A program made the translations under genes and the position numbers. Source: Promethearchaeota archaeon (lineage in GTDB: Archaea > Asgardarchaeota > Lokiarchaeia > Sigyniarchaeales > SOKP01). Taken from it: a DNA stretch of 64,000 nucleotides. Under the pieces are notes generated by a model that ran no database searches, was not told where the DNA came from, and saw only the letters and a program-made list of their open reading frames with translations. The stretch is taken from assembly GCA_019058295.1 (NCBI GenBank), contig JAHPZI010000002.1, positions 1-64,000 of the forward strand, given 5' to 3'. This document shows positions 30,120-59,317 of this stretch, in pieces; position 1 is the first letter of the stretch, and each line of letters starts with the position of its first letter.

Positions 30120-30479
30120 ATGGTGGAACAGCAAGAACAAGGACCATGTGTTTTATTATTTCTAGCAATAGTTTTGGGTGTACTAGGTTTCGTTTTTAAT
30201 GTTTGGTTTTTAATAGGTGTAGGTGGATTTTTATTTATCCTTGGAATTTGTCTGATAATTCAAGAAGCTAACAAACCAAAAACTACTGTGGCTCAACCTA
30301 CTTCTCAACCCGCTCAACAGCCAGTAGCACAGCCAGCACCTCAACCGACACCTCAACCAGCACCTCAACCGACACCTCAACCAGCACCTCAACCTCAAAT
30401 GGAGCAAGAATTTTGCCCACATTGCGGTGCGAAAACAACGGGAAAATATTGTACTCAATGTGGCTCTGAGATCGATTAA
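30120..30479 (+). CDS. Membrane protein with Pro/Gln-rich linker and C-terminal zinc ribbon
   Basis: Two TM helices, (PAPQ/PTPQ)n, FCPHCG...YCTQCG. Confidence 0.8.
   Translation: MVEQQEQGPCVLLFLAIVLGVLGFVFNVWFLIGVGGFLFILGICLIIQEANKPKTTVAQPTSQPAQQPVAQPAPQPTPQPAPQPTPQPAPQPQMEQEFCPHCGAKTTGKYCTQCGSEID
30333..30392 (+). repeat. Coding tandem repeat, 2.5 copies of the 24-nt unit CCAGCACCTCAACCGACACCTCAA
   Basis: Directly visible; encodes PAPQPTPQ. Confidence 0.9.
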
Positions 30480-30614
30480 AATTTGATTAATTTAACCAAT
30501 TCTTTTTTAATTTTTATTTTATATTGGGGAAAATCTTTGTTTTGAACTTTAAAACATAAATCTTTTAATAAAATAAAAGCAAATTGAACAATATATACTA
30601 CACCTGATAAAAAA

Positions 30615-31598
30615 ATGACTAAATCCGAATGGCAAAAAGTGGATTTTCAGCAATTTGTGAAGGACTATGGTATAGATATCGTAATTAATAACGCGCCGAG
30701 TATTTTATACTCGAAGAAAGATAAAGAGCATAAAGCACATAACTCATTAATAGCCTTTTTTCTTGTAGCAGTTGGTTTATTAATTTATCTCTCTCTCTCA
30801 TTATTTTTTATGGAAATTTATTTTAGTATCATTATTTTTATAACCGTGATTAGTTTATTAGTAGCAGTGGATACTGTATTAATTCTCAATTATATTAAGT
30901 CAAATATTTTAATTCGCCCCAGGGAGTGCTGGTTTGAAATTTTTAGATATAATGATTATTATTGTTTTTCCTACTACCTTATTTTCACGGGTAAATGTCA
31001 TCCAAATAAAGCAAAAAGTATTATCTTTAAATTATATCAAGATGAGATATTAAATGACACAATAGATATTACACAAATAGAAATCTATCTTAGGTTTAAT
31101 ACGGATGATTTCAATCACTTAGGATATTTTTTTGAATATGGTAAAGGAAAACCATTTTGGAAAGAAGAAATAAATCATAACGCATGGCAATATTTCCCCT
31201 ATGACAGATCTAAAAATGAAAATTACATAGCAATAGCAAATTGGGCTCATCAATATGAATGGCAGAATGATTTGGAGCTTGATTTTGATAAATTATATGA
31301 ATATGCGCCATGGATCATCAAACGATGGACTATGGACAATTTAAAACCCCTTACTGAAAGTTTTAAAAAAAAAGTTAATTGGAAATTAAGATATATTAAA
31401 TCAACGCCAAAATTACGTCCATGGGAGGGGAATTTAGAAAATCAAGAATACGAGTTTCCAAATCCTACATGGGAAACTGATATTATTAACGATGCTATTA
31501 AAAAAGTAATAGGAGAAGAATACCGCGTCGAAATCTTAAAAGATCTTAAACTCGATTTATTTAAATTAAAAACATATTTTAGAGAGTTATCCGTTTAA
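30615..31598 (+). CDS. Hypothetical membrane protein
   Basis: 327-aa ORF, two TM helices near the N-terminus. Confidence 0.6.
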   Translation: MTKSEWQKVDFQQFVKDYGIDIVINNAPSILYSKKDKEHKAHNSLIAFFLVAVGLLIYLSLSLFFMEIYFSIIIFITVISLLVAVDTVLILNYIKSNILIRPRECWFEIFRYNDYYCFSYYLIFTGKCHPNKAKSIIFKLYQDEILNDTIDITQIEIYLRFNTDDFNHLGYFFEYGKGKPFWKEEINHNAWQYFPYDRSKNENYIAIANWAHQYEWQNDLELDFDKLYEYAPWIIKRWTMDNLKPLTESFKKKVNWKLRYIKSTPKLRPWEGNLENQEYEFPNPTWETDIINDAIKKVIGEEYRVEILKDLKLDLFKLKTYFRELSV

Positions 31599-33152
31599 AT
31601 TTTCAAACATTTTTGTATTTCTTTCATATATCCTCGTAAATTGACGGTAGATTTTCTTATAAATCTTTTTAGAGTTTGGATTAGCTTTAAATGATTTTTC
31701 AATATGAATTAATGGTATTGCTTCCGAGAAATCTTTAAGTATTCCTAATCCAACCATAGCAACTATAGCTATGCCCCTATTACAAGCCAAGTCAGGTTCA
31801 GCTACTTTATTGATATTTTTTTCTAAAATATCTGCTAATATCTGACACCATACATTTGATTTAGCCCCTCCTCCAATAGCATTAATCTGATTGCTCTTCC
31901 CTACTAATCTTTCTACGTAAGTTAATCCCCATTTAATATTAAACGCAACTCCTTCGTACACCGCTCTTAAAAGATCTTCTCTTTTATGGTCGAGGCTTAA
32001 ATTATAAAAACCCCCTCGAACATTCGAATCATTTATAGGACTTCTTTCTCCATACATCCACGGTGTAAAAATTAAATTATTTGCACCAACTTCAGATCCT
32101 TCTACAGTATCATCCAAATATCTATATAGTTCTTGTTTATTGTTTTTATATTTCTCTACTTCACCTTTAAATATTTGATTTGCGACCCAATCTAAACAAA
32201 CCCCCCCCGTTTCCTGTTTACAAAGACATAAATAATTGTTTTGAGCAGAACAAATACTTCCAATGTAATATGCAAGGGTGTTCTTCCTTTCGGAAATATG
32301 TGCGCCAACAAAATCAGCTGTTCCTATACAAACGAGAAGGTGCTTTTCATTTATAGCTCCAGAACCAAGAGCCCCAGAAGTCAAATCAAACGATCCAACA
32401 AAAACAGGAAGTTCTGCTCTTAAACCTAGGTCCTCTGCTGCCTCTTTTGTTAAACTACCGGCCAAATCGGTTGATTTTTTTATTTCGGGTAGTTTTTGCT
32501 TGTCTATTTCAAATTTATCTAATATTGTATCAGACCAATTTAATTTATTTAAATCTGAATCCATCATCCATGAAACATTCCCTAAATCCACTGAAATTAT
32601 AGCATTATTTGTACATTTGTAAACAACAAAATCTTTTACATTAAAGAATTTATATGTTTTATTGTAAATCTCAGGTTCATGTTTTTTTAACCATATAATA
32701 TGAGAAATAGGATCCTTCCCATTTAGTCCAGGAGCGCCACCTGTATTATCAAGAAACATATTAAGTGTTTCAAAATTATATCCAGAGACTAAATTCTCTC
32801 CCTCTGAATATAGATGGGTTATTGTGGAAGCCCGAGTGTCAAGCCAACTAATACACTTCATTAAAGGAGTTCCTTGTTGATCTATGGGAATCGTACAATT
32901 CCCTTGGGAATCAAAAATTAAACCTACAATATCGTCTGGATTAATATTATTTTCATGAATAAGAATGTGAGTTGCTTTTATTACTGAATTCCAAAAATCT
33001 TCGGGTTCTTGTTCGACACACCCTTGTTGTTTTGGATAGTAAAGCGGATAACTCACTTTTGTCTGATTAAGCACATTCAATTTTAGGTCAAATAAAACAG
33101 CCTTATTTCCTGATGTTCCTAAATCATGAGTTAAAATATATTTATCTGTCAT
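31587..33152 (-). CDS. FGGY-family carbohydrate kinase (xylulokinase-like)
   Basis: HDLGTSGNKA, ISWLDTRA, GERSP, AVYEGVA, GGGAKSNVWCQILAD. Confidence 0.9.
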   Translation of the reverse strand: MTDKYILTHDLGTSGNKAVLFDLKLNVLNQTKVSYPLYYPKQQGCVEQEPEDFWNSVIKATHILIHENNINPDDIVGLIFDSQGNCTIPIDQQGTPLMKCISWLDTRASTITHLYSEGENLVSGYNFETLNMFLDNTGGAPGLNGKDPISHIIWLKKHEPEIYNKTYKFFNVKDFVVYKCTNNAIISVDLGNVSWMMDSDLNKLNWSDTILDKFEIDKQKLPEIKKSTDLAGSLTKEAAEDLGLRAELPVFVGSFDLTSGALGSGAINEKHLLVCIGTADFVGAHISERKNTLAYYIGSICSAQNNYLCLCKQETGGVCLDWVANQIFKGEVEKYKNNKQELYRYLDDTVEGSEVGANNLIFTPWMYGERSPINDSNVRGGFYNLSLDHKREDLLRAVYEGVAFNIKWGLTYVERLVGKSNQINAIGGGAKSNVWCQILADILEKNINKVAEPDLACNRGIAIVAMVGLGILKDFSEAIPLIHIEKSFKANPNSKKIYKKIYRQFTRIYERNTKMFENLNG

Positions 33153-33334
33153 TTTAATTATTGTTGATTTTTACTTGTATATTTATAATATTAATTCAAT
33201 ACAAATAAAAATAAACTTAAATTCTCATAAACTTAAAAGAAATTTTATAGCACAAATCTTTAAATTTAAAAAATTAATAAATAATTAGAATCGAAAGAAA
33301 TTAATAAAAATAATATAAAAAGGGAGTGTTGTAA

Positions 33335-34741
33335 TTGGAATCTATATCGACCATTTCAAAACTTGAAATTCCAATAGGTAAAGTTTTTTACAGTAAGAAA
33401 TCAAAAATCTTATCTGTTGATCTTTTTGGTTTTGTGTTCGTAGGCCATTATAAAAAATCTGCAAAAGTTAGCGAAATATTAGACGATATTTTTGCTTCAT
33501 TGAAAGAGATCAAATTTGAACGTAGCTCCATTTGTTTCTTGGATTATAATAACTTGCCAATTTCCGAAAAGAAAAAATTAACGAATCTAAGGTTGAAAGA
33601 GAAAATCGAAAAGGAAGAAAAAAAAGGTAAGAAAGGAAAAGTTGAAAAAGAAAAAGAAAAAAAAGCTGATAAAATAGAAGAGAAAAAAGTATCCGAGAAA
33701 ACGAGAAAAGATAAGAGAAAAAAAGAAAGCAAACTTGTACAATCAGAACAAGAAAGAGAATATTCGTATGGAAGAGATTTAGAAGAGGAAGCTCGTTTTA
33801 AACGAGAAATTGATGTCAGTACTGATGACAAAATATTAATGAAAGACACCGCGGAAGCTTTGGATGAATTGAGTTTTAGTACAAAAGCACCAACAAGAGC
33901 ATCTATTCCACCACCACCAACACCAGCACCTGAGTCTTCTCCACCAGCAGGAGGAGCTCCGGCTAAATCAGAGAGAGCTATAGAACCCGAAGAATATGAA
34001 GAAGAAGGAGAATTAGCGGAAGAAGAAGAGCCTAAACCAACTACTTATAATATCAATATGGGGTTTCAATATTATTCTGTAATGATGGAGCAGAAGAGTT
34101 ATTTATTTTACGTTTATTTCTCACATGAAGAATTAAAAATTATGGATGAGGAGGGTAAAACAATATACACGACTACATTTACAATAACCACAATTAAAAA
34201 AGAACCTCCAATATTAGATTTAAGAATAGAAGGGGAAGGATTTGAGGTCCATCCGTTAACAGGGAAAGTTGAAGTCAAAAAAGATGCAGTTAATCCCCCA
34301 GTGATGATCTTTTCCGTATTACCATTAAAATCAATTAAGACTAAAAAGAAAAAACAAAAGAAAAAGAGTGAGAGACGCTATCTAAACGTCTATATCGATT
34401 TTGAAAATAAAACAATTAGTCATTCCGTTTTATCTATAATTGTACAGCCAAAGCATTATCATTTAGATTTAGGGCCTATACATTTAGATCTTAGTAAAAG
34501 GACAGCAATGACCATATCTTTCATTTCTGTATTAGTAGCTACGATTTCGACTATATATTCATTTTTAAATTTCGAAGTAACATCTTTAACGGACATAGTT
34601 AGCGGGTTTGCTCCAGGTCTAGCTTCGTTTATATTTTTCGCAGTATTTATTATAACATTATTTAAAAATGGTATATATCCTCTTAAACAAAAGTGGGCCG
34701 CTTTATTAAATTTTGATAAGGGACCCACAATGATTAAATAG
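33335..34741 (+). CDS. Hypothetical protein with Lys/Glu-rich and Pro-rich low-complexity segments and two C-terminal TM helices
   Basis: 468-aa ORF, GGGAG RBS before TTG. Confidence 0.6.
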   Translation: MESISTISKLEIPIGKVFYSKKSKILSVDLFGFVFVGHYKKSAKVSEILDDIFASLKEIKFERSSICFLDYNNLPISEKKKLTNLRLKEKIEKEEKKGKKGKVEKEKEKKADKIEEKKVSEKTRKDKRKKESKLVQSEQEREYSYGRDLEEEARFKREIDVSTDDKILMKDTAEALDELSFSTKAPTRASIPPPPTPAPESSPPAGGAPAKSERAIEPEEYEEEGELAEEEEPKPTTYNINMGFQYYSVMMEQKSYLFYVYFSHEELKIMDEEGKTIYTTTFTITTIKKEPPILDLRIEGEGFEVHPLTGKVEVKKDAVNPPVMIFSVLPLKSIKTKKKKQKKKSERRYLNVYIDFENKTISHSVLSIIVQPKHYHLDLGPIHLDLSKRTAMTISFISVLVATISTIYSFLNFEVTSLTDIVSGFAPGLASFIFFAVFIITLFKNGIYPLKQKWAALLNFDKGPTMIK

Positions 34742-53047: not shown

Positions 53048-53956
53048 TTATATTAAATTAAGTTGTTTGAGTACAGCTTTAATTTTTTCGCAATTAGCTT
53101 CTAAAGGAGGCGTTAGCGGCAATCTCATACGCTTATTCATTATACCCATAAGTTCAGCGGAATATTTTACAGGTCCTGGATTTGTTTCAATGAAAAGCAC
53201 TTTAAATAAGTCATATAATTCAAGCTGCATTTTTCTTGCTTTTTCCCAATCTCCGTTATTCATGGTTGTTGTAAATTTATATATTTTAGCGGGAATAATA
53301 TTTGAAGCAACACTAATAACTCCTACTCCGCCTAATGCCATCAAATGATAAGTCATACCATCATCTCCACTTAAAACGATAAAATCATCAGGGGTCATCT
53401 TAATTATTTTTGTTATCTGGTCTATATTACCACTCGCACATTTAATTCCAACTATATTATCTTTTTTTCTTGCTAACGTAGCTACGGTGTCCGGATCCAA
53501 ATTGCGTACTGTACGGCTCGGTACGTTATATAGAATTATTGGAATCGAAACCGAATCTGCAATAGCAGAAAAATGATCTATTAAAGAATGTTGGACTGGT
53601 TTGTTATAATATGGCACTACAACTAAACACCCATCAGCACCAGCTTTTTCAGCATATTGACTAAGTGATATCGCCTCATGAGTCGCATTACTTCCTGTAC
53701 CTACCAATACAAAAGGATCTTTTCCTGATTTTTTAGCCTCATCTACACAGATATCTATTGCCTGATGATGTTCGTCATGTGATAATGTAGCACTTTCTCC
53801 AGTTGTACCCATCGTTAAAGGTTGACAGCCATTTTCGATTTGAAATCTGATAAATTCTCTATATTTTGCATCGTTAATAGAAAAATCTTCATTAAGCGGT
53901 GTTATCATTGCCGTAATGGCATTCCTTAATTTATTTAATTTATTAAATTTTGACAT
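53048..53956 (-). CDS. dapA: 4-hydroxy-tetrahydrodipicolinate synthase
   Basis: GTTGESATL, PYYNKP, LYNVPSRT, IVGIK, LSGDD, ETNPGPVK. Confidence 0.95.
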   Translation of the reverse strand: MSKFNKLNKLRNAITAMITPLNEDFSINDAKYREFIRFQIENGCQPLTMGTTGESATLSHDEHHQAIDICVDEAKKSGKDPFVLVGTGSNATHEAISLSQYAEKAGADGCLVVVPYYNKPVQHSLIDHFSAIADSVSIPIILYNVPSRTVRNLDPDTVATLARKKDNIVGIKCASGNIDQITKIIKMTPDDFIVLSGDDGMTYHLMALGGVGVISVASNIIPAKIYKFTTTMNNGDWEKARKMQLELYDLFKVLFIETNPGPVKYSAELMGIMNKRMRLPLTPPLEANCEKIKAVLKQLNLI

Positions 53957-54059: not shown

Positions 54060-55334
54060 TTATTTCTTGTTTTTTTTTATTTTTTTTTTAATTAAAAAAC
54101 CCATTTTGCTCTGAAGTCCAAACAGAGGAATAAAGCCATAACTCAAATTTTGATTAAAAGTGCTAGCCGTTTCATAAGTTGCTAAGTTCATATCATATAT
54201 TCCGTAAGGAGATTCCCTTGCTACAACTTCTGCGCTTCCTTTAAATAATTTTACTTTAACACTACCAGTTACTTTTTTGTTTATTTCATTTATAAACGCA
54301 TCTAATGCATCTTTTAAAGGATCAACCCATAATCCCTCATAAGCTAACTCAGACCATCTTTGATCTACCATGTTTTTAAAGGAATTTTCTTGCTTAGTAC
54401 ATACATATTTCTCAAGATCTTTATGCGCTTTAATAAGCATTAATGCCGCAGGAACTTCATAAGTTTCTCTTGATTTTAATCCAATGGCTCGATCTTCCAT
54501 GTGTTCTATTCTTCCAACACCATGCTTACATCCTAAATCGTGTAATGTTCTTAATAAGTCAATACTACTCATCTTTTCCCCATTTAAGCCTACTGGAACC
54601 CCTTCTTCAAAATTAATAGTTATATATTCGGGCTCATTGGGAGCCTTCTCAGGAGCAATTGTCCATTCTCTCGAATCTTCAGGTGGTTCAATTTCTGGGT
54701 GTTCTAAAATATCACATTCTGCACTTCTTCCAAAGAGATTCTCATCAATGCTATATTTCTTATATTTATTGACTGGAATACCATGTCTTTCTGCGTATTT
54801 GACTTCCTCATCTCGCCCCATATTCCATTCAATTAAGGGTTGTAATACCTCGATTTCTGGAGCGTACGCATTTGCTGTAATATTTATTCTAATCTGATCG
54901 TTTCCTTTCCCAGTACACCCATGTGCTACTACGGAAATTCCTTCCTTTTTAGCAATTTTAATAGCTTCTATAGCAATTAAAGGTCTCCCTACGGCAGTGC
55001 TTAACGGATATATCCCTTGATATAACCCATTGGCTTTAATTGCAGGAAAAACATAGTCTTTTACAAATCTTTCTTTTAAATCTACTGTGTAATGTTTAAC
55101 AGCACCTAATTTATACGCTTTTTCTTCAATTTCTTTAAACCTTGTTGGATCAGCAAATTCTTGACCTAAATCAGCTGTAAATGTATAGACTTTGGCGCTA
55201 TATGTTTCTTGAAGCCACTTAATCATGCAGGAAGTGTTTGATCATATATACATCAATTGTATATATTCTAATCCTCCTGAATACATTAATAAAATCTTAT
55301 CATACTTATCCTTTTTGGGTCCTAATTGATTCAT
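54060..55334 (-). CDS. argG: Argininosuccinate synthase, split by a 30-nt intron: join(55334..55268, 55237..54060), 414 aa
   Basis: Spliced product MNQLGPKKDKYDKILLMYSGGLDTSCMIKWL... restores the PP-loop; downstream HGCTGKGNDQIR, YSIDENL, KSRETYE motifs. Confidence 0.93.
55238..55267 (-). other. BHB-type mRNA intron in argG (30 nt, contains an in-frame TGA)
   Basis: Minus strand GGA[GATT]AG|A-ATATATACA-attga-TGTATATAT-[GATC]AA|AC: 4-bp central helix, two 3-nt bulges, 9-bp intron stem. Confidence 0.9.
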
Positions 55335-55513
55335 ATTCCATCATCTCAAAAGAATAAACATATTAAGATTTGATAGAATTTATTTTTTCCCCTAAAATTA
55401 TTTAAGAAATTACTGGATGATAATGAAAAAAATTAAATATTGAATTATCAATTAGTAATTTGCAATTAACAATTTATTCTATTTTTTAAAACAAATAGCA
55501 AAAATTCGATATT

Positions 55514-57010
55514 TTGAACGAAAAAGATAATAATTTAGAAATAAGTGATGAAATATATAAGAAAATTTACAAATCCATTTCTACACAAATTTATACATGG
55601 CGTAAAATTGATGACGATCTAATTCTAATTGATTATAATAATGCTGCCGAAGAATTTACTGGAGCAAGAATAAAGGATTACATCGGAATAAAAGCTACAG
55701 AATTATATAAAGATCAACCAAACATTTTGAATGAATTATTTGATTGTGCTAATACACAATTAGATATCTCTAGAGAGATGGAATATAAAGGCATATCGAC
55801 GGGAGAGGAAAAATATTTAGAAGTTATATATAATTTTATAACCCCTGATTTAGTTTTAGTTCATATGAAAGATATTACCGATAGAAGAAAAGTGGAAGAG
55901 ATCCTGAAGAAAGAAAAACAGGAAAAATCTATTATCTTAGAAAATATCTTGGAACATATAGTTTTTCAAACTTTAGATCATACAGTTATATATCCTAATA
56001 AAGCTGCGTGTGATTCAGTTAGTCAAAAACCAGAACAATTAATTGGACGAAAGTGTCATCAAATATGGCAAGGCAGTGATGAGGTTTGTGAAAACTGTCC
56101 AGTTGAACATTCATTTAAAACGAAAAAACCAGAGACCAATGAAATCACAACTGGTGATGGGAGAGTTTGGTTTATTAAAGGATATCCTATTCTTGATGAT
56201 GATGGAAATTTAATAGGTGGTGTCGAGCTTACCTCTGAAATAACGGAAAAGAAGCATATTGAAGTTAAATTAAAAAAATCAGAAAAAATGTATCGAGAAG
56301 CTTACAATAGTAGTAATCTTTATAAAGATTTATTTACCCATGATATAAATAACATATTTCAAAATATCTTATCTTCAATCGAACTCTACAATTTATATAG
56401 GAAAGATCCTAACAAACAAACAGAACTTGAGGAAATTGAAAATTTAATAGTAGAACAAATTTTAAGAGGTACAATGCTAGTATCAAATGTTCAGAACCTT
56501 TCAACAATCGAAAATTATGATATGTCTCTATTTTCAATTGAAGTTAACGAAGTTTTAAAAAAGGCAATCTCTTTTGTAAGACAGAGTTTTCCTAATAAAA
56601 AACTAAATATTAAGACTGAATCAATACAAAACGAGTATTTTGTTATGGCAAATGAGTTATTGCAAAACGCTTTTGAAAATCTTTTATTTAACGCTGTGAA
56701 ACATAATATAAATGAAATTATCAAGATTGATATAAAATTATCAAAAGACGTAAAAGATGATAAAAAAATAATAAAAATAGAATTTATTGATAATGGTATC
56801 GGGATTCATGACTCCATGAAAGATGAAATATTCCATAGGGAATATAGAGATTATTTAAAATATAAACTCCCTTCAGGAATAGGATTAGGTCTGCTATTTA
56901 CAAAAAAAATGATCGAAAGTTTTAATGGTGAAATAAAAGTTGAAGATAGGATTGAAGGGGATTATTCCCAAGGTAGTAATTTTATTATCATGATACCAGA
57001 GGAAAAATGA
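55514..57010 (+). CDS. PAS-domain sensor histidine kinase
   Basis: Two PAS domains, H-box THDINN, NLLFNAVKH, DNGIGI, GIGLGL, GSNF. Confidence 0.9.
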   Translation: MNEKDNNLEISDEIYKKIYKSISTQIYTWRKIDDDLILIDYNNAAEEFTGARIKDYIGIKATELYKDQPNILNELFDCANTQLDISREMEYKGISTGEEKYLEVIYNFITPDLVLVHMKDITDRRKVEEILKKEKQEKSIILENILEHIVFQTLDHTVIYPNKAACDSVSQKPEQLIGRKCHQIWQGSDEVCENCPVEHSFKTKKPETNEITTGDGRVWFIKGYPILDDDGNLIGGVELTSEITEKKHIEVKLKKSEKMYREAYNSSNLYKDLFTHDINNIFQNILSSIELYNLYRKDPNKQTELEEIENLIVEQILRGTMLVSNVQNLSTIENYDMSLFSIEVNEVLKKAISFVRQSFPNKKLNIKTESIQNEYFVMANELLQNAFENLLFNAVKHNINEIIKIDIKLSKDVKDDKKIIKIEFIDNGIGIHDSMKDEIFHREYRDYLKYKLPSGIGLGLLFTKKMIESFNGEIKVEDRIEGDYSQGSNFIIMIPEEK

Positions 57011-59215: not shown

Positions 59216-59317
59216 GGGAGGGTGGTCTAGCTTGGTATGATTCCTGGTTTGGGACTTCAAACAGAAAGCTTGGAGCAAAACACCAGGAGGCCGGGGGTTC
59301 GAATCCCCCCCCTCCCA
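59216..59317 (+). tRNA. tRNA-Pro(TGG) with a 28-nt canonical 37/38 intron (59254-59281)
   Basis: Acceptor GGGAGGG/CCCTCCC+A, anticodon stem CCTGG/CCAGG, T arm GGGGG-TTCGAAT-CCCCC; BHB helix TTTG/CAAA with bulges GG|A and AC|A; CCA not encoded. Confidence 0.95.

What the first reader, a model, noticed from the sequence alone, without database searches (positions are those of the whole stretch)
55238..55267. Canonical BHB intron inside the protein-coding gene argG
Seen: the ORF track's ArgG lacks its N-terminus. The missing exon (55334-55268, ...LMYSGGL) is separated from TSCMIKW by 30 nt containing an in-frame TGA. On the mRNA the junctions form a textbook bulge-helix-bulge: central helix GAUU/GAUC, bulges AG|A and AA|A, intron stem AUAUAUACA/UGUAUAUAU, exon-side closing G-C pair. 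Cutting after the second nucleotide of each bulge joins G+AC = GAC (Asp) and restores the invariant SGGLDTS PP-loop. Established: BHB mRNA introns are best known from crenarchaeal cbf5. Inference: a metabolic enzyme gene in an Asgard archaeon needs tRNA-endonuclease splicing for expression. This is relevant to intron origins and to Ire1/HAC1-type non-spliceosomal mRNA splicing in eukaryotes, and it may be a regulatory checkpoint.
Basis: partly seen in the sequence, partly recalled or inferred. Interest (0 to 1): 0.95.

Follow-up and report, generated by a model that had tools for sequence, protein, structure and literature searches.

The report
tRNA-type intron splits Asgard argG
The only argininosuccinate synthase gene of this Asgard (Promethearchaeota) archaeon is broken inside its ATP-binding motif by a 30-base insert shaped like the introns archaea cut out of tRNAs; relatives show the gene is alive, so its mRNA almost certainly has to be spliced, which in print is known for only one archaeal protein gene (cbf5).

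Summary
On the minus strand, argG exon 1 (55334-55268) and exon 2 (55237-54060) are separated by 30 nt (55267-55238) that carry an in-frame TGA. The junction fits a bulge-helix-bulge motif. Cutting after the second nucleotide of each bulge rebuilds GAC and the SGGLDTS motif.

The insert is not an artefact or a pseudogene.
- Homologous 30-nt inserts sit at the same codon in 6 genomes of four genera and in 11 metagenome contigs. An unrelated 32-nt insert obeying the same rule sits there in a fifth genus. About 75 other argG genes of the phylum are uninterrupted.
- Five of the 9 intron-stem pairs show compensatory changes.
- dN/dS within the intron-bearing clade is 0.06-0.08, and exon 1 is intact everywhere.

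The genome encodes two EndA paralogues, one with and one without the catalytic His. RtcB is missing from this 79%-complete assembly but present in five intron-bearing relatives. I also confirmed canonical BHB inserts in uL11 and Sec61beta of the same genome.

No RNA data covered the junction, so splicing itself is inferred. Only cbf5 and a Haloferax 5' UTR are in print. This scan has noted similar mRNA introns on other DNA (Asgard, DPANN) and in this genome.

The parts
55268..55334 (-). argG exon 1: start codon, 22 codons (MNQLGPKKDKYDKILLMYSGGL) plus the first base (G) of the split Asp codon
   Evidence: The peptide is identical to the N-terminus of the uninterrupted argG of G002. It is intact in all 7 intron-bearing genomes, and the only differences among the three closest carriers are synonymous.
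55238..55267 (-). 30-nt BHB intron with an in-frame TGA at 55244-55242
   Evidence: Homologous inserts at the same codon occur in G005, G007, G012, G282, G186 and in 11 metagenome contigs. There is no other copy in this genome and no Rfam family matches.
54060..55237 (-). argG exon 2: AC completing the Asp codon, then 391 codons (TSCMIKW...) and the stop
   Evidence: NCBIfam TIGR00032 scores 467.7 bits (cut-off 268.2), aligned from profile position 12. Pfam Arginosuc_synth aligns from position 12 of 162, and Arginosuc_syn_C also matches. dN/dS is 0.06-0.08.
55270..55273 (-). Central 4-bp helix H, 5' strand (GAUU; exonic, second and third bases of the Gly codon plus the first two of the Leu codon)
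   Evidence: It pairs with 55240-55243 and is 100% paired in the 6 genomes found by protein search. In G027 the exon reads GUCU and the intron GGAC, which is co-variation between exon and intron.
55267..55269 (-). 5' bulge A G | A; predicted cleavage between 55268 and 55267
   Evidence: AGA is invariant in all 15 aligned sequences. The cleavage rule reproduces ARAGORN's 28-nt intron of tRNA-Pro(UGG) in the same window.
55258..55266 (-). Intron stem h', 5' arm (AUAUAUACA)
   Evidence: It pairs with 55244-55252. 98.5% of cells are paired over 15 sequences, and 5 of 9 pairs show changes on both sides. Controls with the partner slid by 1-3 columns pair in 19-60% of cells.
55253..55257 (-). Intron loop (AUUGA), variable among relatives
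55244..55252 (-). Intron stem h', 3' arm (UGUAUAUAU)
55240..55243 (-). Central helix H, 3' strand (GAUC; intronic)
55237..55239 (-). 3' bulge A A | A; predicted cleavage between 55238 and 55237
   Evidence: Relatives carry AAA, AUA or AGA, always with A as the first exon-2 base.
55274..55278 (-). Outer exon-exon helix h, 5' strand (AGGAG, Gly-Gly codons)
   Evidence: It pairs with 55232-55236 (CACUU): G-C, an A.A mismatch, G-C, G-U, A-U. All five positions pair in G186 and in metagenome row m133. An alternative register, CAGGAG(G)/CUUCCUG, competes with it.
55232..55236 (-). Outer exon-exon helix h, 3' strand (CACUU, Thr-Ser codons)

Best explanation
The 30 nt at 55267-55238 are an archaeal bulge-helix-bulge (tRNA-type) intron inside the argG coding sequence.

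Proposed mechanism:
1. The gene is transcribed from upstream of exon 1.
2. In the pre-mRNA, the last exon-1 codons (GGA UUA G) pair with the 3' end of the intron (GAUC) to form the 4-bp central helix. The intron's 9-bp hairpin stacks on one side of it, and a short exon-exon helix (Gly-Gly codons with Thr-Ser codons) on the other. This leaves two 3-nt bulges.
3. The splicing endonuclease EndA (two paralogous genes, on contigs C1 and C26) cuts after the second base of each bulge.
4. An RtcB-type ligase joins the exons, probably also circularising the intron.
5. The product reads ...GGA UUA G-AC ACU..., giving a 414-aa ArgG with an intact SGGLDTS PP-loop.

Shown here: the sequence anatomy, conservation of the structure with compensatory changes, precise presence/absence among orthologues, purifying selection on both exons, and presence of the enzyme genes in the lineage. 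Inferred: that cleavage and ligation really occur, and their efficiency.
For: 1. Anatomy and frame restoration. The same cleavage rule reproduces ARAGORN's intron of tRNA-Pro(UGG) 4 kb away in the window.
2. Of 82 argG-bearing genomes among 400 of the phylum, 7 carry an insert, always in the same codon and phase, and the rest read SGGLD-TS uninterrupted.
3. Six of the inserts are homologous 30-mers. All stem substitutions keep pairing. With 11 metagenome copies added, 5 of 9 stem pairs show double changes, 0 of 500 shuffles reach the observed covariation score, and slid controls pair in 19-60% of cells against 94%.
4. G027 carries an unrelated 32-nt insert with central helix GUCU/GGAC, whose canonical cuts also give CUU G|AC ACC. 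The BHB model is within 1.4 kcal/mol of its MFE there, and within 0.7 in G186.
5. The Leu codon is UUA in 6 of 6 carriers of the 30-mer, against 6 of 25 non-carriers.
6. dN/dS is 0.06-0.08 at dS 0.13-0.17 among G000, G005 and G007, all of them carriers. Exon 1 keeps its start codon and peptide in all carriers.
7. argG is single-copy in the genome. argH is present in the near-identical carrier G007 and in G012.
8. Two EndA paralogues are present, one with and one without the catalytic His. This fits the (alpha-beta)2 type reported for Asgard, which has broad BHB specificity (PMC5829648). RtcB is present in 5 of 5 carriers searched.
9. An independent DNA sample keeps the insert (contig of run X2).
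10. uL11 and Sec61beta of the same genome carry canonical BHB inserts of 30 and 32 nt inside Pfam domains.
Against: - There is no transcript evidence. The RNA runs found held only short conserved pieces from other organisms and none bridged the junction.
- RtcB was not found in this assembly, which is 79% complete.
- In this genome the strict outer helix has only 4 of 5 pairs with an A.A mismatch, and the nearest-neighbour optimum is a different exon-exon register. The substrate may therefore be a relaxed rather than a strict BHB.
- The splice junction has a 1-nt ambiguity: G|A...A|A and GA|A...AA|C give the same product.
- argH is not in this assembly.
- Three of the 4 central-helix pairs in the metagenome rows were forced by my search pattern, so support for that helix rests on the 6 genomes found by protein search plus G027.
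Confidence: 0.85

Rival explanations
1. The insert is an inactivating insertion and argG is a pseudogene, or is on its way to becoming one.
For: There is an in-frame TGA inside an essential motif. argH is not found in this 79%-complete assembly. argG is absent from many genomes of the family.
Against: The insert persists in 5 separate lineages and 11 metagenome contigs with no second lesion. dN/dS is 0.06-0.08 among three carriers that diverged after acquiring it. Exon 1 is conserved with synonymous-only changes. The insert itself keeps its structure through compensatory changes, which a dead insertion would not.
Confidence: 0.04
2. The mRNA is not spliced. The cell makes a truncated ArgG from the internal Met (55226), with or without a separate 30-residue N-terminal peptide.
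For: An ATG lies 4 codons into exon 2, and the long ORF stands alone in the ORF list.
Against: Such a protein lacks the SGGLDTS ATP-binding loop, which is invariant in the ~75 uninterrupted relatives. This reading does not explain why exon 1 stays under selection, why the insert keeps a BHB geometry, or why its boundaries are exactly those that restore GAC.
Confidence: 0.03
3. The ribosome bypasses the 30 nt (programmed hopping of the T4 gene 60 type). A stop codon follows a take-off site and a hairpin lies in the gap.
For: The gap holds a stable hairpin and an in-frame stop.
Against: Hopping needs matching take-off and landing codons. Here the Asp codon is split (G / AC), and no UUA, GAA or GGA landing codon sits at the 3' edge. 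In G027 the repeated GAC would land in the wrong frame, and that gap is 32 nt. The bulges, the 4-bp helix and its exon/intron co-variation are not features of bypass elements.
Confidence: 0.03
4. The insert is an assembly or sequencing artefact.
For: None found.
Against: The same insert appears in independent assemblies from other studies and in a contig of a second sample (X2).
Confidence: 0.005

Closest known systems
BHB intron in the cbf5 (pseudouridine synthase) pre-mRNA of Crenarchaeota (Desulfurococcales, Sulfolobales; Watanabe 2002; Yokobori 2009, PMC2738675)
   Same: Both are short tRNA-type introns inside a protein-coding sequence. Both are bounded by a bulge-helix-bulge motif and occur in hosts whose EndA is hetero-oligomeric. 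Both are patchily distributed among relatives, implying gain and loss. In both, gene callers mis-annotate the gene as truncated or frameshifted.
   Different: The gene is different (a metabolic enzyme, argG) and so is the phylum (Promethearchaeota, Asgard). Here the intron splits the catalytic PP-loop codon. Two unrelated intron sequences occupy the same site in different genera. The same genome has at least two further interrupted genes (uL11, Sec61beta). cbf5 splicing was shown experimentally; this case was not.
BHB intron in the 5' UTR of HVO_1309 of Haloferax volcanii (PMC7714728)
   Same: It is an mRNA substrate of the archaeal splicing endonuclease outside tRNA and rRNA.
   Different: It lies in a 5' UTR (46 nt) and does not interrupt the reading frame. 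It was detected as a circular RNA and cut in vitro.
Archaeal pre-tRNA BHB introns, e.g. tRNA-Pro(UGG) at window 59216-59317
   Same: Same geometry and same cleavage rule: the scanner that finds the argG intron reproduces ARAGORN's 28-nt tRNA-Pro intron. Similar length (19-44 nt in this genome). Asgard tRNA genes are reported to be unusually intron-rich, with repeated gains (bioRxiv 10.64898/2026.10.13.758758).
   Different: The host RNA is a messenger. The exon-side helices are built from codons, so protein and RNA constraints overlap.
Ire1/RtcB splicing of HAC1/XBP1 mRNA in eukaryotes
   Same: It is spliceosome-independent, protein-only mRNA splicing: endonuclease cuts in structured loops, followed by ligation by a tRNA ligase (RtcB in metazoa).
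   Different: The endonuclease (Ire1 kinase-RNase) is unrelated to EndA. Its substrate is two stem-loops with a consensus loop, not a BHB, and it is a regulated stress switch. No homology is implied or tested here.

Membership tests
Archaeal BHB (splicing-endonuclease) intron | Two 3-nt bulges on opposite strands, separated by a 4-bp helix | tested here: met
   GAUU/GAUC with bulges AGA and AAA. The helix is 100% paired in the 6 genomes found by protein search.
Archaeal BHB (splicing-endonuclease) intron | Flanking helices h (exon-exon) and h' (intron), i.e. the strict hBHBh' form | tested here: inconclusive
   h' is 9 bp with 5 covarying pairs. In G000, h is G-C, an A.A mismatch, then 3 pairs, and a competing register is more stable. 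h is fully formed in G186, m133 and G027. G000 may therefore be a relaxed form.
Archaeal BHB (splicing-endonuclease) intron | Cutting after the second bulge base on both strands gives the exact mature junction | tested here: met
   G + AC = GAC restores SGGLDTS. The same holds for the unrelated 32-nt insert of G027. The rule was checked on the intron that ARAGORN places in tRNA-Pro of this window.
Archaeal BHB (splicing-endonuclease) intron | The host encodes the splicing endonuclease EndA | tested here: met
   Two PF01974/PF02778 proteins of 201 aa (C1 and C26), one with and one without the catalytic His.
Archaeal BHB (splicing-endonuclease) intron | The host encodes the RtcB ligase | tested here: inconclusive
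   Not found in G000, which is 79% complete. Found over cut-off in G007, G005, G012, G282 and G027.
Archaeal BHB (splicing-endonuclease) intron | Spliced RNA and/or a circular intron observed | not testable with these tools
   No RNA contig bridges the junction.
Argininosuccinate synthase (ArgG, EC 6.3.4.5) | Match to the equivalog model over its cut-off | tested here: met
   TIGR00032 scores 467.7 bits against a cut-off of 268.2, and NF001770 scores 480.5 against 334, both on exon 2 alone.
Argininosuccinate synthase (ArgG, EC 6.3.4.5) | N-terminal PP-loop SGGxDS/T | tested here: met
   Present only after removal of the 30 nt. The role of the motif in ATP binding is from general knowledge of N-type ATP pyrophosphatases.
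Programmed ribosomal bypass (T4 gene 60 type) | Matching take-off and landing codons flanking the gap | tested here: not met
   The Asp codon is split and no matching codon pair exists. In G027 the GAC repeat would land out of frame.
Group I / group II self-splicing introns | Ribozyme core of hundreds of nucleotides | tested here: not met
   The insert is 30 nt, and no Rfam family matches at E<=1.

The most novel reading that the evidence does not exclude
argG is one visible member of a set of messenger-RNA introns in Promethearchaeia that the tRNA-splicing enzymes remove routinely. At least argG, the ribosomal protein uL11 and Sec61beta are affected in this one genome. These micro-introns turn over quickly: they are gained, lost or replaced at sites whose codons can form the exon-side helices. 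Two unrelated introns occupy the same argG codon in different genera, and intron-free sister species exist in every genus. That would mean the closest archaeal relatives of eukaryotes already tolerate, and depend on, interrupted protein genes and enzymatic mRNA splicing.
Probability: 0.55. Interest if true: 0.9.

Novelty: new member of a known kind. Interest (0 to 1): 0.8.

Why it matters
In the literature I could search, endonuclease-dependent splicing of an archaeal coding sequence is documented for one gene only: cbf5, in Crenarchaeota (PMC2738675; a 2020 paper, PMC7714728, still calls it the only other mRNA case beside its own Haloferax 5' UTR intron).

A second, unrelated gene in Asgard archaea matters for several reasons.
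- mRNA splicing by the tRNA machinery would not be a one-gene curiosity. The same genome also has interrupted uL11 and Sec61beta.
- Gene callers systematically truncate such genes. ArgG here loses its ATP-binding loop, so metabolic reconstructions of Asgard genomes under-call functional enzymes.
- The argG site offers a natural experiment on intron gain and loss. There are intron-plus and intron-minus sister species, and two unrelated introns at one codon, in the lineage most relevant to the origin of eukaryotic split genes.
- Expression of an amino-acid pathway enzyme would depend on EndA and RtcB, which could in principle couple it to RNA-processing capacity. That last point is speculation.

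Tried and rejected
- RNA evidence. The look-up of sequencing runs listed three runs on record as RNA (X17, X18, X20), with small shares, plus X19, which is probably DNA. Laying X17, X18 and X20 at 88% likeness gave no contig over 55080-55600. The few pieces lie on conserved parts of exon 2 and run on into unlike sequence, so they come from other organisms. This says nothing for or against splicing.
It was useless for the intron question.
- Genome-wide census. A relaxed BHB scan gave 118,628 candidates. An 'ORF-merging' filter showed no excess over controls with shifted splice sites, because adjacent same-strand genes give a large background. I therefore make no claim about the total number of mRNA introns. 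Only motif- and Pfam-supported cases (uL11, Sec61beta) are reported.
- Multi-copy element. A fuzzy search for the argG intron sequence in the genome found only itself and one poor match, so it is not a repeat or a MITE.
- Rfam search of 55000-55500: no match.
- ARAGORN on the window with default settings found no tRNA. With intron detection it finds tRNA-Pro.
- uS11. The 30-nt insert is real, but its 5' site does not fit the strict rule, so I left it unexplained.
- Rejected readings: stop-codon read-through or selenocysteine, because the stops differ among carriers (TGA, TAA) and G027's insert is 32 nt; an intein, because of the stops and the 10 codons; ribosomal hopping, because there is no take-off/landing pair.

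Full report
**1. What is in the sequence**

Read on the minus strand, an ATG at 55334 opens MNQLGPKKDKYDKILLMYSGGL. After the Leu codon comes G (55268). Then come 30 nt (55267-55238) that read on as EYIQLMYI and a TGA (55244-55242). From AC at 55237-55236 the frame ACT TCC TGC ATG ATT AAG TGG... runs 391 codons to the stop at 54060.

That long frame is argininosuccinate synthase. TIGR00032 scores 467.7 bits against a cut-off of 268.2, and NF001770 scores 480.5 against 334. The alignments begin only at profile position 12-17, and Pfam Arginosuc_synth begins at position 12 of 162. The N-terminal PP-loop is therefore missing from the ORF as called. Removing exactly 55267-55238 joins G+AC into GAC and yields ...LLMYSGGLDTSCMIKW..., a 414-residue protein.

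**2. The BHB geometry**

- GAUU (55273-55270, exon) pairs with GAUC (55243-55240, intron), giving G-C, A-U, U-A and U-G.
- On the 5' strand the helix is followed by AGA (55269-55267). On the 3' strand it is followed by AAA (55239-55237).
- Between them, AUAUAUACA (55266-55258) pairs with UGUAUAUAU (55252-55244) around a 5-nt loop.
- Outside, G55274-C55236 closes the motif, followed by an A.A mismatch and three more pairs.
- Cutting after the second base of each bulge gives exactly the 30-nt excision that homology demands. There is a 1-nt ambiguity, because the first base of the intron and of exon 2 are both A.

I checked the cleavage rule on the organism's own RNA. The same scanner reproduces the 28-nt intron that ARAGORN places in tRNA-Pro(UGG) at window 59216-59317.

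The geometry is rare by chance. At length 30, 3 of 6.4 million positions in the genome meet the central helix, at least 4 of 5 outer pairs and an inner stem of at least 9 bp.

There is a thermodynamic caveat. The MFE of the 64-nt region is -15.5 kcal/mol (z = -2.4) and uses a different exon-exon register (CAGGAGG/CUUCCUG). The strict model costs -5.4 against -14.8 on 55 nt. With the central helix and the intron stem enforced, the best fold is -13.5 and has a 6-nt 3' bulge. In G186 and G027 the strict model lies within 0.7 and 1.4 kcal/mol of the MFE. In G000 the substrate may therefore be a slightly relaxed BHB.

**3. Comparative evidence**

*Distribution.* A protein search of 61 relatives, and then of 400 genomes of the phylum with an uninterrupted orthologue as query, found argG in 82 genomes. 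Seven are interrupted, all in the same codon and phase:
- G000, G005, G007 (one genus, 98% protein identity);
- G012, G282 and G186 (three other genera);
- G027 (a fifth genus).

The rest read SGGLD-TS without a break. Record titles of the carriers name them Promethearchaeota or Promethearchaeia MAGs, which confirms 'Asgard'.

*Structure conservation.* Six inserts are homologous 30-mers. Their substitutions keep every stem pair, and three pairs carry double changes. A pattern scan of metagenome contigs added 11 loci, 9 of them new variants, all with open exon 1 and exon 2. On 15 sequences:
- the intron stem is 98.5% paired;
- 5 of 9 pairs change on both sides;
- no shuffle of 500 reaches the observed score;
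- sliding the partner by 1-3 columns drops pairing from 94% to 19-60%.

My pattern forced three of the four central-helix pairs in the metagenome rows. Support for that helix therefore rests on the six genomes found by protein search and on G027.

*G027.* Its insert is 32 nt of unrelated, GC-richer sequence. The exon there reads GGU CUU G, and the intron carries GGAC to pair with GUCU. The canonical cuts (UG|A and AU|A) again give CUU G-AC ACC. This is co-variation between exon and intron.

*Codon usage.* The Leu codon is UUA in 6 of 6 carriers of the 30-mer, against 6 of 25 non-carriers.

**4. The gene is alive**

- Among G000, G005 and G007, which all carry the intron, dS is 0.13-0.17 and dN/dS is 0.06-0.08.
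- Carrier versus non-carrier sister pairs give similar ratios (0.04-0.10).
- Exon 1 keeps a start codon and the conserved YDKILLMYSGGL in all carriers. Between G000 and G007 it differs by two synonymous changes only.
- argG is single-copy.
- argH is absent from this 79%-complete assembly but present in G007 and G012.
- A contig from a second DNA sample keeps the insert.

A pseudogene, an artefact, or a truncated protein started at Met 55226 cannot explain these data together.

**5. Machinery**

The genome has two 201-aa EndA paralogues, each with PF02778 and PF01974 domains.
- The C1 copy carries the Tyr, His and Lys context of a catalytic subunit.
- The C26 copy lacks the His.

This fits the (alpha-beta)2 architecture that Kaneta et al. 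report for Asgard archaea and link to broad BHB specificity (PMC5829648). I did not test for the specificity loop itself. RtcB is not in this assembly but is present in all five carriers searched. ARAGORN predicts introns in 10 of the 44 tRNA genes it calls. A recent preprint describes Asgard tRNA genes as exceptionally intron-rich, with repeated gains (10.64898/2026.10.13.758758).

**6. History**

The argG tree follows the genera. Carriers fall in five separate places, each beside intron-free sisters. At least 4 changes are forced by well-supported branches. G186, a carrier, is the earliest branch of the family clade.

Two scenarios remain: an old intron with many precise losses, or repeated acquisition at one favourable site. 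The data do not decide between them. The 30-mers stay about 70-77% identical across genera whose synonymous sites are saturated (dS above 1.5), which means constraint on the intron, recent spread, or both. The intron sequence is single-copy in the genome.

**7. Other interrupted genes in the genome**

Earlier first-stage notes on this genome listed several candidates. I tested some of them with my own scan.
- uL11 (C30 126695-126724, 30 nt) has a canonical hBHBh' motif with a 7-bp outer helix. Splicing restores GGPPIGPVVGPTG, and exon 2 starts at position 21 of 58 of Ribosomal_L11_N.
- Sec61beta (C30 56079-56110, 32 nt) also has a canonical hBHBh' motif, with at least 5 outer-helix pairs. Splicing restores GGAGLMRFFED, and exon 2 starts at position 6 of 41 of Sec61_beta.
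- uS11 (C1, region 158824-158919) has a 30-nt insert with TAA. Only its 3' site fits the strict rule.

A statistical census failed because of background.

**8. What is known**

The held literature gives the following.
- cbf5 is the only confirmed coding-sequence case. Other cases were 'predicted' but unconfirmed (PMC2738675).
- A 2020 study adds a 5' UTR intron in Haloferax and calls cbf5 the only other mRNA example (PMC7714728).
- Searches for Asgard or Lokiarchaeota mRNA BHB introns found nothing.

This scan has noted similar introns before, on other DNA (DPANN EF-2, uppS; Asgard queE, hypD, a mutase subunit, a HAD hydrolase). Those are AI notes that I did not test.

**9. Verdict**

It is a new member, by gene and by phylum, of the known kind 'BHB intron in an archaeal pre-mRNA'. 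The missing piece is transcript or enzymatic evidence.

Noticed in passing
window 59216-59317 (+): tRNA-Pro(UGG) gene with a 28-nt intron, placed there by ARAGORN run with intron detection. The default ARAGORN call on the window reported no tRNA at all. My BHB scanner reproduces this intron, with a 6-bp inner and a 7-bp outer helix.
   Followed up: partly
G000 contig C30 126695-126724 (-), locus L126 396-425: The ribosomal protein uL11 gene is interrupted by a 30-nt canonical hBHBh' insert inside the GPPxGPxxGP motif. Exon 2 starts at position 21 of 58 of Pfam Ribosomal_L11_N.
   Followed up: partly
G000 contig C30 56079-56110 (-), locus L127 280-311: The Sec61beta gene is interrupted by a 32-nt canonical BHB insert, which shifts the frame. 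The spliced peptide reads ...PMPLGGAGLMRFFED..., and exon 2 starts at position 6 of 41 of Pfam Sec61_beta.
   Followed up: partly
G000 contig C1, about 158824-158919 (-): The uS11 gene carries a 30-nt insert with an in-frame TAA between PYAA and (M)QCGFR. The 3' cut fits the BHB rule (GUUG, then AA|G). The 5' cut needed to restore AMQ lies 2 nt before the rule's position, so the geometry is unexplained.
   Followed up: partly
G000 contig C22, about 30303-33335: A dense array of intron-free tRNA genes: 27 of the 28 that ARAGORN calls on C22, covering most amino acids, within about 3 kb. The scattered tRNA genes of the genome often carry introns. It could be a viral or mobile tRNA island, or foreign DNA in the bin.
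   Followed up: no
G189 contig C80 3401-3517 (locus L037 202-276): A short decayed copy of the argG N-terminus (LGPKKEK*DKILLLYSGGLDTSCML, with stops) lies about 2 kb upstream of the intact argG in a related genome.
   Followed up: no
window 53048-53956 (-): The gene directly downstream of argG looks like a DapA-type dihydrodipicolinate synthase, judged by eye from its translation. Upstream, on the other strand (55514-57010), is a PAS/histidine-kinase-like ORF. Neither was checked with a family search.
   Followed up: no
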